Shown: positions 13,636 through 63,194 of the stretch, piece by piece
Position numbering within the stretch: the first letter of the stretch is position 1
Layout of the letters: each line of letters begins with the position of its first letter
Assembly (NCBI RefSeq): GCF_055900595.2
Contig: NZ_CM148325.1
Direction: 5' to 3' (one strand)
Length of the DNA: 64,000 nt
Position numbers and translations under genes: made by a program
Notes under the pieces: generated by a model
Database searches by the model: none
What the model saw: only the letters and a program-made list of their open reading frames with translations
What the model was told of the DNA's origin: nothing

Positions 13636-14988
13636 TTATTTCCAGATACGTAACTCATCGTCCGTTGTAACTTCTTTACTGGCTTTCATTTTCGGCAGTG
13701 AAAACGCATACCAGTCGATATTACGGGTCACAAACATCATGCCGGCCAGCGCCACCATCAGCACACTGGTTCCCAATAACAGTGCGCTATCGGTAGAGTT
13801 GAGCAGTCCCCACATCACACCATCCAGCAACAACAGCGCGAGAGTAAACAACATGCTGTTGCGCCAGCCTTTTAATACCGCCTGCAAGTAAATACCGTTC
13901 ATTAACGCCCCTATCAGGCTGGCGATTATCCATGCCACGGTAAAACCGGTATGTTCAGAAAGCGCCAGCAAGAGCAAATAAAACATCACCAATGAAAGCC
14001 CCACCAGTAAATATTGCATCGGGTGTAAACGTTGATCGGTAAGCGTTTCAAAAACAAAGAAGGCCATAAAAGTCAGCGCAATCAGCAAAATAGCGTACTT
14101 AGTCGCCCGATCCGTTAATTGGTATTGATCGGCTGGCGTCGTCACTGCGACGCTAAACGCCGGGAAGTTTTCCCAGCCGGTATCATTACCTGAAGCAAAA
14201 CGCTCACCGAGATTATTAGCAAACCAGCTGCTTTGCCATTGCGCCTGAAAACCAGACTCGCTGACTTCCCGTTTGGCTGGCAGAAAATCACCTAAAAAAC
14301 TGGGATGCGGCCAGTTGCTGGTTAAGGTCATTTCGCTATTACGCCCGGCAGGCACCACAGAAAGATTGCCGGTACCGCTTAAATTCAGCGCCATATTCAG
14401 CTTCAGGTTCTGCTTGCGCCAGTCCCCTTCGGGTAAAGGGATATGCACGCCCTGCCCGCCTTGCTCTAACCCGGTGCCGGGTTCAATGGTCAGCGCCGTT
14501 CCGTTAACGTCAGGCGCTTTCACCACACCAATACCACGCGCATCCCCGACGCTAATCACAATAAATGGCTTGCCTAAGGTGATATTTGGCGCGTCGAGTT
14601 CGCTAAGACGCGAAACATCGAAATCGGCTTTTAGCGTTAAATCACTGTGCCAGACCTGACCGGTATAAATCCCAATCTTGCGTTCTTCCACGTTCTGATT
14701 GCCATCAACCATCAATGACTCAGGTAACCAAAAATGGATAAAACTTCGTTTCCGCTCCACGGTTTTATCCTCTTCCTGCACCGTATAAAGCTCGGTCACA
14801 GGAATAGCGATGAGCGGCCCAACGAGTTTTTGCGGCCCGCTGGTACTTTGGCGAATCGCATCTTCCACATCGCTACGATAATCGGCACGTTCGACAATCA
14901 GCTGCCGAATCAGCATTATCGGAATCAACAACAGCAATACTGCACCAAACAGGGTGGTCATTTTCCAGAACAGGGGGGATTTCAACAT
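13636..14988 (-). CDS. creD: inner membrane protein CreD
   Basis: 450-aa ORF; synteny downstream of creC. Confidence 0.9.
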   Translation of the reverse strand: MLKSPLFWKMTTLFGAVLLLLIPIMLIRQLIVERADYRSDVEDAIRQSTSGPQKLVGPLIAIPVTELYTVQEEDKTVERKRSFIHFWLPESLMVDGNQNVEERKIGIYTGQVWHSDLTLKADFDVSRLSELDAPNITLGKPFIVISVGDARGIGVVKAPDVNGTALTIEPGTGLEQGGQGVHIPLPEGDWRKQNLKLNMALNLSGTGNLSVVPAGRNSEMTLTSNWPHPSFLGDFLPAKREVSESGFQAQWQSSWFANNLGERFASGNDTGWENFPAFSVAVTTPADQYQLTDRATKYAILLIALTFMAFFVFETLTDQRLHPMQYLLVGLSLVMFYLLLLALSEHTGFTVAWIIASLIGALMNGIYLQAVLKGWRNSMLFTLALLLLDGVMWGLLNSTDSALLLGTSVLMVALAGMMFVTRNIDWYAFSLPKMKASKEVTTDDELRIWK

Positions 14989-15045: not shown

Positions 15046-16470
15046 CTATGTGAAGTGACGGTGAAGTCGAAGCGAGGCCAGCACGCCACCTTCCTGCACG
15101 TTGTGCAGCGTGACTTCGCCGTTAAACAAACGGGCGACCTCACTGGCGAACGCCAACCCCAGACCACTACTTTTTTGCCCATTCGCACGCGGCAAAGAGT
15201 AAAAGCGCTCAAAAACACGCGACAGGGCGTAGTCAGGAATACCACTACCGGTATCCAGCACCTTAAGCGTAACGTGTTCATGATCCACTTCAGCGCTTAG
15301 CGTTATACGACCGCCCTCGGGGGTAAAATCGATGGCGTTATCCAATAAATTCCCCAGCGCCTGCTCCAGTAACGCCGATTCAGCAGCAACGTTAACCTCT
15401 GTGGGCATAACATGTAGAGTGATGTTTTTTTCCGCCAACTGCACGGTGCGCGCTTCGCTGATGCGGCGAAATAATGCCGCCACATCAACAGCAGTCAGAA
15501 CGACTTCCTGACGATTCTCCAGTCTTGCCTGGCGTAGTAACGTTTCCACCAGCGCCTGCATTCGCGCATTTTGTGTCAGAATGTTGTCAGTAAAACGAGC
15601 CACCACTTCCGGCGGCGGACCTTCGCGTAAAATTTCCGCCGCACCACGAATCGCCGCCAGTGGGCTTTTTAGCTCATGAGTTAACGCATAAACATACTGC
15701 TCAATATAGTTTTTCCCTTCCAGCTTCACGCGCATACTTTCCAGCGCCTGAGCGAGTTTACGCAGCTCGCTACTACCGAGATCGGGGAGAGGAACGGGCT
15801 TATTGTCAGTGACAGAATCAGCATAGCGAGTGAGCCGGGCAATGGAGCGGTTGATCCACCAAACCATGCCTGCGCCAATCACCAGTGCAATCCCCAACAA
15901 AATGGCGCTGGCCCATAAAATTCGCCGCTCGCTGCGCTTAATGACCGGAGCCATCGCCGCGTTCGGTTTGCCTACGCTCAAAACGCCAATAAGCCGCGAG
16001 CCGTCCATAATCGGCGCGGCAACATACATCACAGAACTTTCGGGATCGGCAGGATTTTGCAACGTGCTGCGCGCACCATACTGACCACGCAACGTTAGCC
16101 AGACGTCATTCCAGCGCGAATAATCCTGTCCAACGGCTTTATTTGCCGAATCGAACAATACTTTGCCCTGCGCATCGGTCATATAGACATGATATTCATT
16201 GCGCACTTTGTTAATGCCACCGATATTGGCGCGAAACGGCCGATGTTGTAGCTGATTAAACGCCTGCGCCAGTTGCCCATGCGTTGGGTCCCCAGAGAGC
16301 AAATCGGGACGCGCCAGCTCCGCCAGCAACGTTGCGGTGTCGATCAACGTCCCCTCCGTTGCTCTTCGCACGCCCGGTTTAACTTCTTTGACAAAAATTG
16401 CCAGTACGAACCAGGCCGCCACTGCCACCAGTAAAAAATAGCCCAGCAACAACCGCATGCCGATACGCAT
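15046..16470 (-). CDS. creC: sensor histidine kinase CreC
   Basis: 474-aa ORF with HisKA/HATPase motifs (…HELKSPLAAIRGAAEIL…, …GSGLGLAFASEVARLFNGEVTL…). Confidence 0.92.
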   Translation of the reverse strand: MRIGMRLLLGYFLLVAVAAWFVLAIFVKEVKPGVRRATEGTLIDTATLLAELARPDLLSGDPTHGQLAQAFNQLQHRPFRANIGGINKVRNEYHVYMTDAQGKVLFDSANKAVGQDYSRWNDVWLTLRGQYGARSTLQNPADPESSVMYVAAPIMDGSRLIGVLSVGKPNAAMAPVIKRSERRILWASAILLGIALVIGAGMVWWINRSIARLTRYADSVTDNKPVPLPDLGSSELRKLAQALESMRVKLEGKNYIEQYVYALTHELKSPLAAIRGAAEILREGPPPEVVARFTDNILTQNARMQALVETLLRQARLENRQEVVLTAVDVAALFRRISEARTVQLAEKNITLHVMPTEVNVAAESALLEQALGNLLDNAIDFTPEGGRITLSAEVDHEHVTLKVLDTGSGIPDYALSRVFERFYSLPRANGQKSSGLGLAFASEVARLFNGEVTLHNVQEGGVLASLRLHRHFT

Positions 16471-17158
16471 TACAGTCCCCTCAGGCTATATCCCATGCCG
16501 CGATGAGTATTAATCGGGGAAAGATCGGGGTTAATGGCGCGCAGCTTGGCACGCAGCGTTTTAATGTGGGTATCGACGGTGCGATCGTAGGTGTCCTGCG
16601 CATCTTCCCATACGCTATCCATCAGTTGCTGGCGGGACCAGACGCGGCCCGGTGACTTGAGTAACGTCTTCAACAATAAAAACTCATACCGAGTCAGCGC
16701 TAATGGCGTGTCAAACCAGCTGATCTGCGCCGCGGGTTCATTCAATTCAAAATGTCCAATACGGATGACGGGAGACGGCGTCGAGAACTTCTTCACCCGA
16801 CGCAGTAGGTGCGCACCCTGGCGCACACTTCGCGGGGTGAAAACGGTTTAGCCACGTAGTCGTCAGCACCAATTTCCAGCCCAAGCAGGCGATCGACCTC
16901 TTCACTTCGGGCCGTCAGGAACAGTACAGGTAACGCCGGATGGAGCGCCAGTAACTGGCGGCACAATTCAAAGCCGCTAATATCCGGCAGACCAACATCG
17001 AGAATCATGACGTCGGGTACCTGCTGGCGAGCTTTATCCAGCACCGGCAAGCCTCGCTCAAAGACCTCGACGGCAAAACCTTCCTGCTGCAACATGTAGA
17101 CCAGCGTGTCGGCGATCCCTTGCTCGTCTTCTACTAACCAGACCGTTTCCCGTTGCAT
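16470..17158 (-). pseudogene. creB: creB response regulator disrupted by a 1-bp frameshift (receiver domain and winged-helix domain in different frames)
   Basis: Two overlapping ORFs 16793..17158 (121 aa, receiver) and 16470..16826 (118 aa, DNA-binding); span is 689 nt, one short of the 690 nt needed for 229 aa plus stop. Confidence 0.7.
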
Positions 17159-17170
17159 AAATCGCCTCTG

Positions 17171-17644
17171 TTATTGCCGCCACGGCATGACAGGAACCGC
17201 GCTAATCGCGTTTTTCGGCGAACCTTCTACAACTTTGTCGGAGTAAGCCAGATAAGCGAGCGCGTTGCGTTTGGCATCATAAAAGCGCACGACCTGTAAC
17301 GACTTAAAGACCAGGGACGTGCGTTTTTTGAAAACTACCTCGCCCTGAGCTTTGCCGTTTTTAATACGATCCGACAGTTCAATCGGCCCGACTTGCTGAC
17401 AAGAAATAGCCGCATCGGAAGTATCTTCCGCCAGGCCCAATCCCCCTTTAATACCGCCGGTTTTCGCCCGGCTCACATAGCAGGTGACATTTTTCACATC
17501 GGGATCGTCAAAGGCTTCCACAACAATTTTGTGATCAGGGCCGATCATTTTAAATACAGTGTCGACCGAACCAATCTCTTCTGCATGAGCCAACGGCCCC
17601 AGCATTATCAGGCTTAAAGACAGAATCAAATGCTTGTATTTCAT
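17171..17644 (-). CDS. creA: periplasmic protein CreA
   Basis: 157-aa ORF with signal peptide [21 protein letters not shown]; first gene of creABCD. Confidence 0.9.
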
Positions 17645-17854: not shown

Positions 17855-18724
17855 ATGGATCAGGCCGGCATTATTCGCGACCTTTTAATCTGGCTGGAAG
17901 GTCATCTGGATCAGCCCCTGTCGCTCGACAATGTAGCGGCGAAAGCAGGTTATTCCAAGTGGCACTTACAGAGAATGTTTAAAGATGTCACTGGTCATGC
18001 TATTGGCGCGTATATTCGTGCTCGTCGTTTGTCGAAATCGGCGGTCGCACTACGCCTGACTGCGCGTCCAATTCTGGATATCGCGCTGCAATACCGCTTC
18101 GACTCTCAACAGACATTTACTCGCGCATTCAAGAAGCAGTTTGCCCAAACTCCTGCTCTTTACCGCCGTTCTCCTGAATGGAGCGCCTTTGGTATTCGCC
18201 CGCCGCTGCGTCTGGGTGAATTCACCATGCCAGAGCACAAATTTGTCACCCTGGAAGATACGCCGCTGATTGGTGTTACCCAGAGTTACTCCTGTTCGCT
18301 GGAACAAATCTCTGATTTCCGCCATGAAATGCGTTATCAGTTCTGGCACGATTTTCTTGGCAACGCGCCGACCATTCCGCCTGTGCTCTACGGCCTGAAT
18401 GAAACGCGTCCGAGCCAGGATAAAGACGACGAGCAAGAGGTGTTCTATACCACCGCATTAGCCCAGGATCAGGCAGATGGCTATGTATTGACCGGGCATC
18501 CTGTGATGCTGCAAGGCGGTGAATATGTGATGTTTACCTATGAAGGTCTGGGAACAGGCGTGCAGGAGTTTATCCTGACGGTATACGGAACGTGCATGCC
18601 AATGCTTAACCTGACGCGCCGTAAAGGTCAGGATATTGAGCGATACTACCCGGCAGAAGATGCCAAAGCGGGAGATCGCCCAATTAATCTGCGCTGTGAA
18701 CTGCTGATTCCGATCCGTCGTTAA
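17855..18724 (+). CDS. rob: AraC-family right-origin-binding protein Rob
   Basis: 289-aa ORF MDQAGIIRDLLIWLEGHLDQPLSLDNVAAKAGYSKWHLQRMFKDVTGHAIGAYIRARRL…. Confidence 0.95.
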   Translation: MDQAGIIRDLLIWLEGHLDQPLSLDNVAAKAGYSKWHLQRMFKDVTGHAIGAYIRARRLSKSAVALRLTARPILDIALQYRFDSQQTFTRAFKKQFAQTPALYRRSPEWSAFGIRPPLRLGEFTMPEHKFVTLEDTPLIGVTQSYSCSLEQISDFRHEMRYQFWHDFLGNAPTIPPVLYGLNETRPSQDKDDEQEVFYTTALAQDQADGYVLTGHPVMLQGGEYVMFTYEGLGTGVQEFILTVYGTCMPMLNLTRRKGQDIERYYPAEDAKAGDRPINLRCELLIPIRR

Positions 18725-19407: not shown

Positions 19408-20270
<863 letters not shown>

Positions 20271-24215: not shown

Positions 24216-24500
24216 TTAATGGGAGGCAAGTTCCCGGAAAAAGGCAGGATTTTCTTTAATTGTGGCAAGTACTTTTGCAGCCAATCCCGTAGGATTTCTT
24301 CGCTTCGATTCCCAGCTTTTAATGGTATCCACACTGGTTCCCAGAGCTTTTGCCATCTCACTTTGCGAAACGTTGAGTTGCTCACGAATAGCTTTAACAT
24401 CCGCAATTTCGTAGCGGGTCACCCGTGCAGGTTCTTTTAAACCTTGTTTAATCTCGACAGCCTCTTCCAGAGAGGTTTTCAACTCATCAAAAAAACTCAT
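24216..24500 (-). CDS. XRE-type helix-turn-helix antitoxin (HigA-like)
   Basis: 94 aa from ATG at 24500 (MSFFDELKTSLEEAVEIKQGLKEPARVTRYEIADVKAIREQLNVSQSEMAKALGTSVDTIKSWESKRRNPTGLAAKVLATIKENPAFFRELASH); SD GAGG 8 nt upstream; starts 1 nt after the toxin stop. Confidence 0.75.
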   Translation of the reverse strand: MSFFDELKTSLEEAVEIKQGLKEPARVTRYEIADVKAIREQLNVSQSEMAKALGTSVDTIKSWESKRRNPTGLAAKVLATIKENPAFFRELASH

Positions 24501-24501
24501 T

Positions 24502-24834
24502 TTATACCTCACCTTTGAGCAGTTTCGTCAACTTCTTTAGTTGAGCTTTTTCCGTATCTGTCAGACTGTCTTTGGCATTCTTCGGATAGGCCATAATCAA
24601 ATAAATAATCTCTTCCGTCGCCAGAAAGTAAATTATTCTGACACTACCACTTTTTCCCTGTGAACCCGCAGCCATTCGGACTTTACGCAATCCACCAGTC
24701 TGCTGAATGAGATCACCTTTATCGGGAGTTCCGATGAGTTCTTTTTGCAATTCCTTTAATTCATCATCGGTTGCAATCTGCTTGATCTGACGCGTAAACA
24801 TTGGCGTCTCTATAAATATTATCGCCTTGCCCAT
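24502..24834 (-). CDS. RelE/ParE-superfamily toxin, HigB-like (Gp49-type)
   Basis: 110 aa from ATG at 24834 (MGKAIIFIETPMFTRQIKQIATDDELKELQKELIGTPDKGDLIQQTGGLRKVRMAAGSQGKSGSVRIIYFLATEEIIYLIMAYPKNAKDSLTDTEKAQLKKLTKLLKGEV); conserved GGLRKxR…GKSGxxRxIY core; SD GGAGG upstream. Confidence 0.75.
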   Translation of the reverse strand: MGKAIIFIETPMFTRQIKQIATDDELKELQKELIGTPDKGDLIQQTGGLRKVRMAAGSQGKSGSVRIIYFLATEEIIYLIMAYPKNAKDSLTDTEKAQLKKLTKLLKGEV

Positions 24835-29355: not shown

Positions 29356-30372
29356 ATGTCCACATTACGCCTGCTCATCTCTGACTCTTACGATCCGTGG
29401 TTTAACCTGGCGGTGGAGGAGTGTATTTTTCGCCAGATGCCCGCCACGCAGCGCGTTTTGTTTCTCTGGCGCAATGCTGACACCGTGGTGATTGGTCGCG
29501 CGCAGAACCCGTGGAAAGAGTGTAATACCCGGCGGATGGAAGAAGATAACGTCCGCCTGGCGAGGCGCAGTAGCGGTGGCGGCGCGGTGTTCCACGATCT
29601 CGGCAATACCTGTTTTACCTTCATGGCTGGCAAGCCGGAATACGATAAAACGATCTCCACCTCGATTGTGCTCAATGCACTGAACGCGCTCGGTGTCAGC
29701 GCCGAAGCGTCCGGACGTAACGATTTGGTGGTGAAAACCGCCGAAGGCGACCGTAAAGTCTCAGGCTCGGCCTATCGCGAAACCAAAGATCGTGGCTTCC
29801 ACCACGGCACCTTGCTACTCAATGCCGACCTTAGCCGCCTGGCAAACTATCTCAACCCGGATAAAAAGAAACTGGCGGCGAAAGGCATTACGTCGGTACG
29901 TTCCCGCGTGACCAATCTGACCGAATTGCTGCCGGGAATTACCCACGAGCAGGTTTGCGAAGCCATAACCGAGGCCTTTTTCGCCCATTATGGCGAGCGT
30001 GTAGAAGCGGAAATTATCTCCCCGGACAAAACGCCGGACTTGCCGAACTTCGCCGAAACCTTTGCCCGCCAGAGTAGCTGGGAATGGAACTTCGGTCAGG
30101 CTCCGGCGTTTTCGCATCTGCTGGATGAACGCTTTACCTGGGGCGGCGTAGAACTGCATTTCGACGTCGAAAAAGGCCATATCACCCGCGCCCAGGTGTT
30201 TACCGATAGCCTCAACCCCGCACCTCTGGAAGCTCTCGCCGGACGACTGCAAGGCTGCCTGTACCGCGCGGACATGCTGCAACAAGAGTGTGAAGCGCTG
30301 TTGGTTGACTTCCCTGAACAGGAAAAAGAGCTACGGGAGTTGTCGACGTGGATAGCGGGAGCGGTACGGTAA
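29356..30372 (+). CDS. lplA: lipoate-protein ligase A
   Basis: 338-aa [69 protein letters not shown]…. Confidence 0.95.
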
Positions 30373-30403
30373 CTCGCTGATTAAAATATCCAGGGAAGGA
30401 AAT

Positions 30404-30667
30404 ATGATCGATCTGAAGAACCAGGAACGGGAGATTATCAATTTAATGTTCAGCCAGGGTATATCCTGGCTAACCGCCGTGCGTATCAGGCATAAACTAT
30501 CACTTGCTGAAGTTAGTAAAATGTTGGGTATCTCGATTAATTCTCTAAAACAAATCGAAAAGACGGAACGGCTTAGTTCAAACATCAAAAACAAAATGGC
30601 AGGAATTTATGGTTGTCCGCCAGAGTTGCTGATATGCCCTTACTGGATGACGGCTGAACATAAATGA
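30404..30667 (+). CDS. small hypothetical protein with a helix-turn-helix motif (87 aa), in the position K-12 yjjJ occupies
   Basis: ORF with strong SD (AGGGAAGGAAAT-ATG) 31 bp after the lplA stop; HTH-like segment LSLAEVSKMLGISINSLKQIEK; AT-rich. Confidence 0.4.
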   Translation: MIDLKNQEREIINLMFSQGISWLTAVRIRHKLSLAEVSKMLGISINSLKQIEKTERLSSNIKNKMAGIYGCPPELLICPYWMTAEHK

Positions 30668-30766
30668 ATAGATTCGTGAATAGATACTCGAATGGATTTA
30701 ATTTTCTATCCATATGAAAAATAATAGTAAATCTATAAATCAGTCGCTATTGATGAATAGATACTA
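30664..30766. repeat. three direct copies of TGAATAGAT(A/T)C downstream of the small HTH ORF
   Basis: Copies at 30665-30673, 30678-30686 and 30755-30763; the first overlaps the ORF stop codon. Confidence 0.5.
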
Positions 30767-30794
30767 AAAAGCCGGAGCGGTCTCCCGCTCCGGC
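30766..30794 (-). terminator. rho-independent terminator of the deo operon (after deoD)
   Basis: GCCGGAGCGG-TCTC-CCGCTCCGGC hairpin followed by a U-run on the minus strand. Confidence 0.85.
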
Positions 30795-30827
30795 TTCACA
30801 CGACAATCGCCTTTCAGCGAAACACAA

Positions 30828-31547
30828 TTACTCTTTATCGCCCAGCAGAACGGATTCCAGTGCGATTTTGATCATGTCGTTGAAGGTAGTCTGACGCTCA
30901 GCGGCAGTGGTTTGCTCGTGAGTGCGGATGTGGTCAGACACGGTGCAGATGGTCAGGGCTTTCGCGCCAAACTCTGCAGCCACGCCGTAGATACCAGCCG
31001 CTTCCATTTCCACGCCGAGGATGCCGTATTTTTCCATCACGTCGAACATTTCGCCGTCCGGAGAGTAGAACAGGTCAGCGGAGAACAGGTTACCAACGCG
31101 AGCATCAATGCCCAGTGCTTTAGCTGCATCTACTGCGTTACGCACCATGTCGAAGTCAGCGATAGCGGCAAAGTCATGGTCTTTAAAACGGATGCGGTTA
31201 ACTTTGGAATCGGTGCAGGCACCCATACCAATCACTACGTCACGCAGTTTTACGTGCGGCAGAACTGCACCACAGGAACCAACGCGAATGATTTTCTTCA
31301 CGCCGAAATCGGTGATCAGTTCTTTAGTGTAGATGGAGCAGGACGGGATACCCATACCGTGGCCCATTACAGAAATTTTGCGGCCTTTGTAAGTACCGGT
31401 GAAGCCCAGCATACCGCGAACGTTGTTCACTTCACGAGCATCTTCAAGGAAAGTTTCAGCAATATACTTCGCACGCAGCGGGTCGCCTGGCATCAAAACT
31501 ACGTCAGCGAAATCGCCCATTTCTGCATTAATGTGTGGAGTAGCCAT
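30828..31547 (-). CDS. deoD: purine nucleoside phosphorylase DeoD
   Basis: ORF 30828..31604; DeoD N-terminus [33 protein letters not shown] begins at an internal Met (239 aa). Confidence 0.95.
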
Positions 31548-59005: not shown

Positions 59006-60670
59006 TTAAAACGTTTCCCAGTTCTCTCCGCTATCTGCCACTGTCACTTTGCGCGGCGCTACTGGCGTCACAGTTTTTACTACTGCCGATGCTTCGCGCT
59101 GGCGTTGCTGCTCTTGCTGAATCCGGAACACTGCCACAGCTTCGGTCAGGCGACTGGCCTGCTCCTCCAGCGCGGCGGCGGCGGCGGCAGATTCTTCCAC
59201 CAGCGCAGCGTTCTGTTGGGTTACTCTGTCCATCTCAGCTACTGCTAAGCCAACCTGATCGATACCACGGCTCTGCTCATCAGAAGCCGAAGCAATTTCG
59301 CCCATAATGTCCGTCACGCGGGTCACAGCGCTGACAATCTCTGCCATGGTTTCCCCGGCGCTTTCGACCAGCGTAGAGCCAACATCCACTTTGCCCACCG
59401 AGTCTTCAATCAGGCTTTTAATTTCGCGAGCCGCCTGAGCGCTACGCTGGGCCAGATTACGCACTTCTCCCGCAACCACCGCAAAACCGCGCCCTTGCTC
59501 ACCCGCACGCGCTGCTTCAACCGCCGCGTTCAAAGCAAGAATATTGGTCTGGAAGGCAATGCCGTCAATTACGCTGATAATATCGGCGATTTTCTGCGAG
59601 CTGGTGGAGATATCGCGCATGGTCTGCACCACGTTATCAACCACTTTGCCGCCACGTTGCGCCGTTTCGGAAGCACTTAATGCCAGATGGCTAGCCTGAC
59701 GCGCATTCTCGGCGTTCTGTTTCACCGTTGCGGTCAGTTGCTCCATGCTGGCTGCCGTCTCTTCCAGCGAAGCGGCCTGTTGCTCGGTGCGCGAAGAAAG
59801 ATCGTTATTGCCGGTGGCGATTTCGCTGGCACCGCTATAGATAGCATTGGCCCCGTTGCGCACATCACCGACGGTACGCATCAGCTCTCCCTGCATATGG
59901 CGCAAACTCTCTGCCAGTTGCCCCATCTCATTAGAACCATCCACCTCAATCGGTTTCACCAGATCGCCACCTGCAATATGACGAATGCTGTCAATCAGGC
60001 GATTCATTGGCGCTACCAACGAGGCTTTAATACCGAACCAGACGGCGAAGATGACCGCCAGTACGACGATCATCACGCCCACCAGAATCCACATCGCCTG
60101 GCTGTAGGAGGCATTATTATCGCTGACGGCGATATCATAGAGCCGATCGTTTTGCTCCATGTAAGCCACATACTGCTTCTCGAAACCGTCCTGATATCCC
60201 TGAGTCGGCTGATCAAAGAATTCGTTGATTTTGCCTGCACCTAACAGTTGGATCAGTTCCGCCAGCGCATTGTGATAAATATCGTAATTACGTTTGATCT
60301 CTGCCGATGCGGCGGTGCTCTGACGCGGGTCACGCGGCAATGCTTCGTAATCCGCCCAGTTTTTTTCCGCCTGTTTCAGCGAAATACTGGCACTCTGCAT
60401 CAGCTCGGCAACGGTTGAACCGCTACCAATATTGTTCTGATCCATCATGTAGCGGATACCCGCGCGGTTGAGGGTGTTACGCGTCTGCAACAACGCGACC
60501 CAGCTGCCATTCAGCGTGGATTGCTGCTGGCGAATGGTTTGTAAAACAGTGAAATTTTCTTTGTCATTCTTTAAGGCATTAAAGAACAGACCGCCTGATG
60601 TCAGTTGTAAAAGGCCAAAAACGGCCAAAACCAGCAGTAAGCTGGTCACGATCTTGATACGTTTTAACAT
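59006..60670 (-). CDS. tsr: methyl-accepting chemotaxis protein I (serine chemoreceptor) Tsr
   Basis: ORF 59006..60685; start [23 protein letters not shown] (551 aa); HAMP and MCP signalling domains, C-terminal NWETF. Confidence 0.95.
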
Positions 60671-60701
60671 GGTTTCTCTTTCCACTAGACAGATACACTG
60701 G

Positions 60702-60809: not shown

Positions 60810-61715
60810 ATGGTACAAAGTATCAATCTTCTTCGAATCAGTGATACTCCTATGGCTTATAGCATCGATATCATCTCCTGCATTACCGAACGGTTTATGG
60901 CGTTAACAGCCACTGAAAAGCGTATCGCACAATTTATTCTTGATGACGTCTCTGCCGCAGTAGAGTTGCCAATTGCTGAGCTGGCACGGTTAACGCAAAC
61001 CAGTCAGGCGTCGGTGACGCGTTTTGCCCGTGCACTGGGGTGCAAAGATGTCCGCGAGTTGAAAGTAAAACTGGCGCAGTCACTGGCTGTCGGGCAGCGG
61101 TTTATTCTCGATGTACCGGATCTTGACGGTGTTCAGGGGATCTACGAAGCGATTATTAGCGTGCTGGAAACGCATCGTCGTTCGCTGGATATGAATGCCA
61201 TCAGCCAGGCTGTAAGCTGGTTAAGTCAGGCGCGGCAAATTCTTGCATTGGGAACTGGCGGCGGTTCCACTATCTGTTCACAGGAGATTCAGTACCGTTT
61301 ATTCCGTCTGGGGCTACCAGTGGTCAGTCAGAATGATGCCCTGATGATGAGAATGATGTGCTCGGCAGTGATGCCGCAGGATGTGGTGATTGTGCTGTCG
61401 CTGGGCGGTTATACACCGGAAATCATCGAAAGTGCGGCAATCGCCCGTCAGTATGGCGCGCGTGTTATTGCCATTACGCCAGCACAAACACCGCTGGCGG
61501 AACAGGTGGATCTGGTATTGCCGTTACTGGTTCAGGAAAGTGATTACATCTTTAAGCCCACCCCTTCCCGCTACGCGATGTTAGCCATGGTCGATGTACT
61601 GGCAACAGAACTGGCAATGGCAAATAAAGCGCAGGCGAAAGATCGCCTGCGGCGGATAAAACTGGTGTTAGACAGCCACCGTGGGGGCGCTAACCGCCAG
61701 CCACTTGGCGATTAG
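60810..61715 (+). CDS. RpiR/MurR-family transcriptional regulator (N-terminal HTH plus SIS domain)
   Basis: 301-aa ORF (possible true start at MAYSIDII…, 60849); HTH …TEKRIAQFILDD…IAELARLTQTSQASVTRFARALG…; not in the K-12 tsr neighbourhood as I recall it. Confidence 0.75.
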   Translation: MVQSINLLRISDTPMAYSIDIISCITERFMALTATEKRIAQFILDDVSAAVELPIAELARLTQTSQASVTRFARALGCKDVRELKVKLAQSLAVGQRFILDVPDLDGVQGIYEAIISVLETHRRSLDMNAISQAVSWLSQARQILALGTGGGSTICSQEIQYRLFRLGLPVVSQNDALMMRMMCSAVMPQDVVIVLSLGGYTPEIIESAAIARQYGARVIAITPAQTPLAEQVDLVLPLLVQESDYIFKPTPSRYAMLAMVDVLATELAMANKAQAKDRLRRIKLVLDSHRGGANRQPLGD

Positions 61716-61724
61716 CACTGTCGG

Positions 61725-63194
61725 TTATGCTTCTTCAGGTTTGGTGATCACGACACTCTGGTTTTCACGCTCATTGGTGATAATCGCCAAAGCTTCTTCC
61801 CGGCTGACCTGACTAGCTGGCGTTACCAACGTCACCAGTACGCCAGCGACCAGGCTGCCCAGCACTGACGGAATACACGGATTACCCCAGTAAGCCAGCC
61901 AGTCGGCATTCATCAGCACCACAATGGACATCACCATACCGCTCACTAACGCCGCCAGCGCGCCCTGCCAGTTAAAGCGTAGCCAGAAGCGACCGAGGAT
62001 TGAGCAGATAAACAGCCCGGACATCAGCATCGAAATCATTTTGGTAATGTAGCTGATGATGTCATTAGAGGTCAGAGCAAAGGCCAGCGCCAGGCCAATA
62101 ACAAAGGTCAACATCCAGCGTGAGTAAGTAATGGCCTTGTCCTCCGGCGGCATTCTGCCGGTAATCATGGTGTAGACGTCGCGCATCATAATCGCCACTG
62201 CCGCAATGGCATCGGAGCTGGCAGAAGACATGGTGGCAGAAAGCCCGGCAATCAGTACCACCAGCCCAAGAATGGCGGGTAAGAAGCTGGTCGCGAACAA
62301 GAAGGCATAGTTACTGTTTTCCAGATTCGGGTTCATGGTGAACGCCGCCATGCCGATAATGGCAGGCAGAATCGAGAAGAACAGATACAACACGCCAGTA
62401 ATAACAAATGAACGCCGTACAGAGGGAACGTCTTTTCCCGAGTAAATACGCTGGCGATAAGATGGTGTGGCCAGTACGCCGACACCAATAACCAGCGCCA
62501 GCGAAAGCGCAGGCAGCACGCCCATTTTATCAATCGCAAACAGGCTCATCGCTTTTGGGTCCATCGCCTGTTCAATCGCACTCCAGCCGCCAACGTGAAC
62601 AACGGCAAGAATAGCCATTAATATAAAGCCAAAGAACAGAATTAGGGCCTGAATAGTATCTGTCCACACTACCGCCGAATAACCACCGATAATAACGTAA
62701 ATCGCAAAAGCTAAGGCAATAATTAATTTTGCCACCGTAAGATCAATACCTGTTGCCCAGGCAAGATACATACTCCCACCTAATATATGCGCCCCCAGCC
62801 AGCCAATAGAGGCAATAAATATCATCAGGCCGACAATATTTTTAATTAAATGGCTGCCGCCAGTATAATAAGATATTTCTTCACTCATGGTCATAAAACG
62901 TAATTTACGTACCGGTGCAAACAGCCACGCCACCAGTAATATACCTACGGCCCCACCGACGCCATAAAGCATTCCGGCCCAGCCATTGCTGTAGCCAAAG
63001 CCCACTGCGCCCATACTGGAACCAGTGCCAACCATCGTGGCAACGGTTGACCCCAGCGTCAGAAACAGCGGCAGCGAACGCCCGCCCAGCAGAAAATCTT
63101 CTCCGTTTTTCTGATTACGAGAAACAAACCAACCAAGCCAAATCATGGCGATGGCATAAATAATAAAGCCGACTAAAAAGATATGACTGTTCAT
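61725..63194 (-). CDS. sodium:solute symporter family (SSF) transporter
   Basis: 489-aa polytopic ORF MNSHIFLVGFIIYAIAMIWLGWFVSRNQKNGEDFLLGGRSLPLFLTLGSTVATMVGTGSSMGAVGFGY…, typical SSF N-terminus. Confidence 0.75.
   Translation of the reverse strand: MNSHIFLVGFIIYAIAMIWLGWFVSRNQKNGEDFLLGGRSLPLFLTLGSTVATMVGTGSSMGAVGFGYSNGWAGMLYGVGGAVGILLVAWLFAPVRKLRFMTMSEEISYYTGGSHLIKNIVGLMIFIASIGWLGAHILGGSMYLAWATGIDLTVAKLIIALAFAIYVIIGGYSAVVWTDTIQALILFFGFILMAILAVVHVGGWSAIEQAMDPKAMSLFAIDKMGVLPALSLALVIGVGVLATPSYRQRIYSGKDVPSVRRSFVITGVLYLFFSILPAIIGMAAFTMNPNLENSNYAFLFATSFLPAILGLVVLIAGLSATMSSASSDAIAAVAIMMRDVYTMITGRMPPEDKAITYSRWMLTFVIGLALAFALTSNDIISYITKMISMLMSGLFICSILGRFWLRFNWQGALAALVSGMVMSIVVLMNADWLAYWGNPCIPSVLGSLVAGVLVTLVTPASQVSREEALAIITNERENQSVVITKPEEA

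What the first reader, a model, noticed from the sequence alone, without database searches (positions are those of the whole stretch)
16793..16826. creB response-regulator gene split by a 1-bp frameshift
CreB appears as two overlapping minus-strand ORFs in different frames, a 121-aa receiver domain ending …REVCARVRTYCVG* and a 118-aa DNA-binding domain starting …LLRRVKKFSTPSP…. The total span of 689 nt is one short of an intact 229-aa gene. The sequence reads CGCACCTACTGCGTCGG where an intact frame (…ARVRTLLRRVKKF…) would need CGCACCTTACTGCGTCGG, i.e. one T is missing at about 16807. If real, the Cre two-component system would yield only a stand-alone receiver domain, while creA, creC and creD are intact. 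It could equally be an assembly error.
Basis: partly seen in the sequence, partly recalled or inferred. Interest (0 to 1): 0.5.

Follow-up and report, generated by a model that had tools for sequence, protein, structure and literature searches.

The report
creB pseudogene from a one-base deletion
The E. coli response-regulator gene creB is broken here by a real loss of one T, a mutation carried by one closely related group of isolates, which makes it an ordinary recent pseudogene and not an assembly error or a new system.

Summary
creB (window 16470-17158, minus strand) differs from MG1655 creB by 7 substitutions and one missing T of a TT pair at creB nt 352 (window 16807). This splits it into a 121-aa receiver ORF and a 118-aa mechanical ORF (108 aa as gene callers call it) for the DNA-binding domain.

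The deletion is real. The exact 121-aa product is indexed on more than 100 public contigs from NCBI, ENA and Logan. Three NCBI assemblies are 99.97-99.98% identical to the window over 6.4 kb, carry the same deletion, and differ by private SNPs. Of about 60 K-12 orthologues in the window, only creB is broken.

None of 5,284 matching complete RefSeq E. coli genomes has the deletion, so it marks one rare clone.

I found no slippery site, no long homopolymer and no Shine-Dalgarno sequence that could rescue the gene. The most likely outcome is loss of CreB output. creA, creC, creD and the creD cre-tag remain intact.

At least four other independent creB-null alleles occur in public E. coli data, and PGAP already annotates one of them as a pseudogene. 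Interest is low.

The parts
16470..17158 (-). creB pseudogene, whole span: 689 nt where intact creB has 690 nt
   Evidence: Alignment to MG1655 creB shows 1 gap and 7 substitutions. With the T restored, the translation scores 407.1 bits on NCBIfam NF008296 (CreB equivalog, cut-off 273).
16807..16808 (-). Site of the deletion. A single T at 16807 stands where intact creB has TT (creB nt 352-353, codon 118 TTA = Leu).
   Evidence: None of 5,284 matching complete E. coli genomes matches the 81-nt query across this site at 100%; the best match is 98.8%, which is one gap.
16793..17158 (-). 5' ORF of 121 aa. It encodes the receiver (REC) domain, residues 1-117 as in the intact protein, then YCVG and a stop.
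   Evidence: PF00072 Response_reg. NF008296 matches residues 1-117 at 210.4 bits, below the cut-off. The conserved residues E10, D11, D54, T82, Y101 and K104 are present.
16470..16826 (-). 3' ORF in the other frame, encoding the winged-helix DNA-binding domain. The mechanical ORF is 118 aa from the GTG at 16826. Gene callers use the GTG at 16796 (108 aa), which overlaps the upstream TGA as GTGA.
   Evidence: PF00486 Trans_reg_C on the 108-aa product. NF008296 profile positions 122-226 match at 173.9 bits. Neither GTG has a Shine-Dalgarno sequence: -0.5 and -1.1 kcal/mol, against -5.8 to -8.7 for the native creB, creC and creD starts.
15046..16470 (-). creC sensor kinase, intact at 474 aa. Its ATG overlaps the creB stop (TAATG).
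13636..14988 (-). creD, intact at 450 aa. It is the standard read-out gene of the cre regulon.
   Evidence: The role of creD is taken from bioRxiv 10.1101/615310.
15050..15065 (-). cre-tag-like direct repeat TTCACCGTCACTTCAC, at the 3' end of creC and upstream of creD
   Evidence: It is the only exact match to TTCACN6TTCAC in the window; 0.10 matches are expected by chance. That this motif is the CreB binding site is from my own knowledge of Cariss et al. 2008, a paper not held in the library.
17171..17644 (-). creA, intact at 157 aa, the first gene of the creABCD cluster

Best explanation
This is a genuine, recent loss-of-function mutation. One T of a TT pair in codon 118 of creB was lost in the ancestor of a narrow E. 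coli clone. Translation from the creB start therefore ends after 121 residues. That product is the receiver domain lacking the end of helix alpha5 and the linker. The winged-helix DNA-binding domain is left in another frame with no ribosome-binding site. The inferred consequence is that CreC can no longer drive transcription through CreB, so CreBC-dependent induction of creD and the rest of the cre regulon is lost. A polar reduction of creC and creD expression is also possible, because about 330 nt of creB mRNA would go untranslated ahead of the translationally overlapping creC start. The rest of the cluster is still intact because the mutation is young. Shown here: the deletion, its reproducibility, its restriction to one lineage, the domain content of the two ORFs and the lack of recoding signals. 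Inferred: loss of function, polarity, and whether the loss is neutral or advantageous.
For: There is one gap against MG1655 creB. The exact 121-aa product is listed on 126 contigs, or 175 index blocks, from NCBI, Logan and ENA, including one contig of 5.35 Mb. Loci L002-L004, from three NCBI assemblies, are 99.97-99.98% identical to the window over 6,366 nt with no gaps. Each differs by private SNPs at 19967, 17859 or 14592, so they are separate isolates of one clone. Of about 60 K-12 orthologues in the window, creB is the only one with a frameshift or internal stop. No complete RefSeq E. coli genome has the deletion. There is no X XXY YYZ heptamer, no homopolymer of 6 or more, and no Shine-Dalgarno sequence before either candidate restart codon. 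Independent creB-null alleles exist elsewhere in E. coli: W174*, +1 T, a 7-bp duplication and E138*. PGAP labels the W174* allele a pseudogene with an internal stop in the complete genome of strain SCU-105. This shows that natural strains tolerate creB loss. In UPEC, deleting creBC shortened division time in N-minimal medium (PMC10986536).
Against: No expression or phenotype data exist for this clone. The GTG start of the 108-aa ORF overlaps the new stop codon (GTGA), an arrangement that can support termination-reinitiation, so some free DNA-binding domain might be made. I did not inspect raw reads. The contig counts may include repeated sequencing of the same isolates.
Confidence: 0.9

Rival explanations
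1. The missing T is an assembly or base-calling error, and the strain has an intact creB.
For: No complete RefSeq genome carries the deletion. The probable source, GCA_043978215.1, is a draft assembly.
Against: The same deletion is found in at least four assemblies that differ by private SNPs, and in Logan and ENA assemblies built independently from other runs. The site is a dinucleotide, not a homopolymer. No other indel disrupts any of about 60 genes in the 64 kb.
Confidence: 0.03
2. The split gene still works as two polypeptides. The receiver fragment acts as a phosphate sink for CreC. The DNA-binding domain is made by re-initiation at the GTGA overlap and is no longer inhibited by the receiver, so it acts constitutively, as reported for the PhoB output domain.
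For: The GTG at 16796 overlaps the TGA at 16793-16795, and the 108-aa ORF holds the whole Trans_reg_C domain. The receiver keeps all its catalytic residues. [quoted passage not shown] What that paper reports is from my own knowledge.
Against: There is no Shine-Dalgarno sequence before the GTG (-1.1 kcal/mol, against -5.8 to -8.7 at native starts). OmpR/PhoB-family regulators normally need receiver-mediated dimerisation through alpha4-beta5-alpha5 to bind direct repeats, and the break removes the end of alpha5. Other natural creB alleles truncate inside the DNA-binding domain itself (W174*, E138*, frameshifts after residues 125-131), which fits plain loss of function better than selection for a free domain.
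Confidence: 0.05
3. Ribosomal frameshifting or transcriptional slippage at the site restores full-length CreB.
For: The two ORFs overlap by 34 nt, which is the geometry such a mechanism needs.
Against: The creB reading frame contains no slippery heptamer, and the longest homopolymer in creB is T5, at nt 477 and outside the overlap. The arrangement is absent from all 5,284 matching complete genomes, which have the uninterrupted gene. It is therefore not a conserved recoding site.
Confidence: 0.01
4. The loss of function is real, as in the best explanation, but it was positively selected in this clone's niche and did not arise by drift.
For: There are at least five independent null alleles. Two of them sit on more than 100 contigs each. 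A UPEC creBC deletion divides faster in N-minimal medium.
Against: I made no comparison with the rate of null alleles in other non-essential regulators. With about 15 billion proteins indexed, a few null alleles of any dispensable gene are expected. The same UPEC deletion had a vaginal colonisation defect. [quoted passage not shown]
Confidence: 0.2

Closest known systems
Escherichia coli K-12 CreB (response regulator of the CreBC two-component system, OmpR/PhoB family; NCBIfam NF008296)
   Same: The gene lies in the same place, creA-creB-creC-creD between rob and arcA. It is 98.8% identical in nucleotides, and with the T restored it scores 407 bits against a 273-bit cut-off.
   Different: One T is missing in codon 118, so no single 229-aa product is encoded. 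Each half scores below the family cut-off on its own.
creB pseudogene with W174* (internal stop), as PGAP annotates it in E. coli SCU-105 (NZ_CP051738.1)
   Same: It is a naturally occurring inactivated creB in a commensal or environmental E. coli, with creA and creC intact.
   Different: It is an independent event of a different type (G522A nonsense mutation inside the DNA-binding domain) on a background 97.1% identical to the window. It is present in 2 complete genomes, whereas the window's allele is in none.
Isolated PhoB output domain (Ellison and McCleary 2000)
   Same: It belongs to the same regulator family, with the DNA-binding domain physically separated from the receiver.
   Different: That was an engineered, deliberately expressed construct. 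Here nothing shows that the C-terminal ORF is translated at all, and it has no ribosome-binding site. This comparison rests on my own knowledge plus the title seen.

Membership tests
CreB (NCBIfam NF008296 equivalog) | Whole-protein score at or above the curated cut-off of 273 bits | tested here: not met
   As encoded, the N-terminal ORF scores 210.4 bits and the C-terminal ORF 173.9 bits. The sequence with the T restored scores 407.1 bits. The locus is therefore creB by descent, but it does not encode a CreB protein.
CreB (NCBIfam NF008296 equivalog) | Position in the creABCD cluster, directly upstream of and overlapping creC | tested here: met
   The order creA, creB, creC, creD is collinear with MG1655.
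CreB (NCBIfam NF008296 equivalog) | Receiver domain with its phospho-acceptor Asp and a winged-helix Trans_reg_C domain | tested here: met
   PF00072 hits the 121-aa ORF and PF00486 hits the 108-aa ORF. D54, E10, D11, T82 and K104 are present. The two domains are in different frames.
Frameshift pseudogene | A single indel, not a multiple of three, relative to intact orthologues, with no compensating second indel | tested here: met
   There is one 1-nt gap across 690 columns.
Frameshift pseudogene | The indel is reproducible in independent sequence data | tested here: met
   I did not inspect raw reads.
Frameshift pseudogene | No functional product | not testable with these tools
   This needs a creD reporter or RT-qPCR and protein detection in a carrier strain.
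Programmed frameshift or recoding site | A slippery heptamer or long homopolymer in the overlap, and conservation of the split arrangement among relatives | tested here: not met
   There is no X XXY YYZ heptamer, and the only run of 5 or more is T5 at nt 477. None of 5,284 matching complete genomes shares the split.

The most novel reading that the evidence does not exclude
The break creates a working two-piece regulator. A nearly complete stand-alone CreB receiver would soak up phosphate from CreC, possibly altering the known CreC-to-PhoB cross-talk. A free winged-helix domain, made by stop-start coupling at GTGA, would then activate cre-tag promoters without any signal. The clone would have rewired, not lost, the Cre system.
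Probability: 0.04. Interest if true: 0.45.

Novelty: already known. Interest (0 to 1): 0.1.

Why it matters
It matters little beyond correct annotation. The locus should be labelled a creB pseudogene (frameshifted) and should not be called as two genes, as automatic gene callers do. For anyone working with this clone, CreBC-dependent responses are probably absent. These are creD induction, the tolerance to colicin E2 and the better growth with cephalosporins and carbapenems that follow CreBC activation. The deletion is also a convenient one-base marker for the clone. A modest wider point is that creB is inactivated repeatedly and independently in natural E. coli. This fits the mild phenotypes of cre mutants and could be tested for selection in a large survey.

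Tried and rejected
1. An exact 31-nt scan of genome contigs (one genome per GTDB species) across the deletion gave 0 matches. This only shows that no species-representative genome carries it.

2. The exact 118-aa mechanical ORF is not in the protein collection, because gene callers start the second ORF at the later GTG, giving 108 aa.

3. Literature searches for creB with frameshift or pseudogene found nothing on E. coli creB pseudogenes. A search for the assembly accessions found no paper.

4. I could not name the lineage (sequence type or phylogroup). The window is about 96-97% identical to K-12 gene by gene. It is at most 98.8-99.0% identical to any complete RefSeq E. coli genome over 22-24 kb. 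The tools give no organism names for the carrier assemblies.

5. Shigella was considered, because it is rich in pseudogenes, and rejected. There is no second broken gene among about 60 orthologues in the 64 kb. Among ORFs of 150 aa or more I recognised only ordinary chromosomal genes. That was a reading of the ORF list, not a dedicated search for insertion sequences.

6. Recoding and restart were considered and rejected on sequence grounds.

7. The primary papers of Ellison and McCleary 2000 and Cariss et al. 2008 are not held. What I say about them is from memory plus titles in reference lists.

8. One paper states that creBC was 'acquired' by some phylogroups (PMC6896753). This does not fit creB DNA being present in 5,424 of 5,426 complete genomes, and I did not rely on it.

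Full report
**Observation.** On the minus strand the window holds two overlapping ORFs.
- The first runs 16793..17158 and encodes 121 aa, MQRETVWLVEDE...REVCARVRTYCVG*.
- The second runs 16470..16826 and encodes 118 aa from a GTG, MRQGAHLLRRVKKFSTPSP....
- Together they span 689 nt.
- Aligned to creB of MG1655 (690 nt, locus L001:3001-3690), the window differs by 7 substitutions and one gap. K-12 reads CGCACCTTACTGCG and the window reads CGCACC-TACTGCG.
- The surviving T is creB nt 352, window 16807, in codon 118 (TTA, Leu).

**Gene identity.**
- The neighbours are arcA, creD, creC, [creB], creA, rob, gpmB, yjjX, trpR and slt. This order is collinear with MG1655 in reverse orientation.
- With the T restored, the translation scores 407.1 bits on NCBIfam NF008296, the CreB equivalog model, whose cut-off is 273 bits.
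- As encoded, the N-terminal ORF matches profile positions 1-116 at 210.4 bits. The C-terminal ORF matches positions 122-226 at 173.9 bits. Both are below the cut-off.
- Precomputed Pfam hits give Response_reg (PF00072) on the first ORF and Trans_reg_C (PF00486) on the second.
- Crystallised receiver domains of relatives (PhoB, YycF, KdpE, MtrA) align to CreB residues about 6 to 121-123. The break at residue 118 therefore removes the last turn or so of helix alpha5 and the linker.
- The acidic pocket (E10, D11), the phospho-acceptor D54, and T82, Y101 and K104 are all retained.

**Real mutation or artefact?** Five results point to a real mutation.
1. The exact 121-aa product is in the public protein collection on 126 contigs, or 175 index blocks. 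These come from NCBI, Logan and ENA, and the longest contig is 5.35 Mb.
2. Three NCBI assemblies (GCA_965259665.1, GCA_029846055.1, GCA_050170535.1) are 99.97-99.98% identical to the window over 6,366 nt, without gaps, so they carry the same deletion.
   - They are not copies of one another.
   - The window has a private SNP at 19967, L003 has one at 17859 and L004 has one at 14592.
3. The site is a TT pair, not a homopolymer run.
4. Of about 60 MG1655 orthologues compared across the whole 64 kb, creB alone has a frameshift or internal stop. The single gap in creC comes from the MG1655 record used, whose own creC is annotated as frameshifted.
5. The probable source of the window is a draft assembly, GCA_043978215.1. 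It is the only contig in the index that encodes the window's private TrpR R97C variant, and it is 100% identical over 1,327 nt.

I did not see raw reads, so a small residual doubt remains.

**Distribution.**
- creB DNA is present in 5,424 of 5,426 complete RefSeq E. coli genomes.
- An 81-nt query centred on the deletion matched 5,284 of them. None matched at 100%; the best was 98.8%, which is one gap.
- An exact scan of one genome per GTDB species found nothing.
- The window is about 95-99% identical to K-12 gene by gene. It is at most 98.8-99.0% identical to any complete genome over 22-24 kb.
- The carriers therefore belong to a rare lineage with no complete RefSeq genome, and they differ from each other by only about 0.02-0.03%. 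The deletion is a young, clone-specific mutation. I could not name the lineage.

**Could the gene still work?**
- The creB reading frame has no X XXY YYZ slippery heptamer. The only run of 5 or more bases is T5 at nt 477, outside the overlap. Ribosomal frameshifting and transcriptional slippage are therefore unlikely.
- Two GTG codons could start the DNA-binding ORF.
  - The one at 16826 begins the mechanical ORF.
  - The one at 16796 overlaps the new stop codon as GTGA, and gene callers use it (108 aa).
  - Neither has a Shine-Dalgarno sequence. Predicted pairing with the 16S rRNA 3' end is -0.5 and -1.1 kcal/mol, against -5.8 to -8.7 for the native creB, creC and creD starts.
- Weak termination-reinitiation at GTGA cannot be excluded. 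Nothing else suggests that the C-terminal domain is made.

**Likely mechanism and consequence.**
- The shown steps are the deletion, the premature stop, the separation of the domains and the absence of rescue signals.
- The inferred steps are as follows.
  - CreC can still phosphorylate the receiver fragment if that fragment is stable.
  - No CreB protein can bind the cre-tag, so CreBC-dependent activation is lost.
  - About 330 nt of untranslated creB mRNA lies ahead of the overlapping creC start (TAATG). This may lower creC and creD expression through loss of translational coupling and through polarity.
- The single exact cre-tag-like repeat in the window is TTCACCGTCACTTCAC at 15050-15065, just upstream of creD. 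It is intact, as are creA, creC and creD. This is expected for a young mutation.
- From the literature, CreBC controls a small regulon of poorly characterised genes.
  - Activating it gives colicin E2 tolerance, and creD-dependent better growth at sub-MIC cefoxitin, cefotaxime and meropenem.
  - In a UPEC strain, deleting creBC shortened division time in N-minimal medium and gave a vaginal colonisation defect in the mouse infection model (PMC10986536).
- The loss is therefore expected to be mild and dependent on niche.

**Context: creB is lost repeatedly.** The 90%-identity cluster of the truncated protein holds other truncated forms. I recovered their DNA and aligned it.
- W174* (G522A) is on 226 index blocks, including human gut metagenomes, on a background 97.1% identical to the window.
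- A +1 T insertion after nt 372.
- A 7-bp duplication of CCGTCTC.
- E138* in a K-12-like background.

The W174* allele is in two complete RefSeq genomes. In strain SCU-105, from a healthy human, PGAP annotates it as a creB pseudogene with an internal stop. The kind of event reported here is thus already recognised in routine annotation. Only this allele is specific to the window's clone. Whether the recurrence reflects selection or simple dispensability is not settled by my data.

**Verdict.** This is an ordinary, recent frameshift pseudogene of a well-known, non-essential response-regulator gene. The only reading with any novelty is a functional two-piece regulator with a constitutively active free DNA-binding domain. 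I rate that at about 4%.

Noticed in passing
window 19967 (trpR, 19929-20255, minus strand): The window carries TrpR R97C (TGC instead of CGC). Three otherwise near-identical relatives and K-12 all have Arg. The exact protein is on only one contig of the public index, GCA_043978215.1 DAZWYA010000001.1, which is probably the source assembly.
   Followed up: partly
window 15050-15065, minus strand: This is the only exact TTCACN6TTCAC (cre-tag-like) repeat in the window. It lies at the 3' end of creC, just upstream of creD, and 0.10 matches are expected by chance.
   Followed up: partly
window about 24220-24820: A NadS-family antitoxin and RelE/ParE-family toxin gene pair lies between ettA and nadR. 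The close relative EC42405 is annotated this way, and MG1655 keeps only a nadS remnant.
   Followed up: no
window 30372-30828: The HipA-family toxin gene yjjJ, which lies between lplA and deoD in MG1655, is absent.
   Followed up: no
window 60810-63194: Beyond tsr, the MG1655 genes btsT, yjiX, yjiA and mrr have no match. In their place are an RpiR/HexR-family regulator (60810-61715, plus strand) and a sodium/solute symporter family gene (61725-63194, minus strand).
   Followed up: partly
window 59006-60685 (tsr): tsr carries in-frame length differences from MG1655: a 3-codon indel near residue 526, and a longer ORF at the upstream GTG. There are no internal stops.
   Followed up: no
L001/L005 (NZ_CP032667.1, an MG1655 stock), creC: This MG1655 RefSeq record has creC annotated as a frameshifted pseudogene (1,426 nt). 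So the Cre system is also broken, or mis-sequenced, in at least one K-12 assembly.
   Followed up: no
L007-L009, L011-L015, L018 (creB in other E. coli): There are four further independent creB-null alleles in public data: W174*, +1 T after nt 372, a 7-bp duplication and E138*. W174* is in two complete genomes and in human gut metagenomes.
   Followed up: yes
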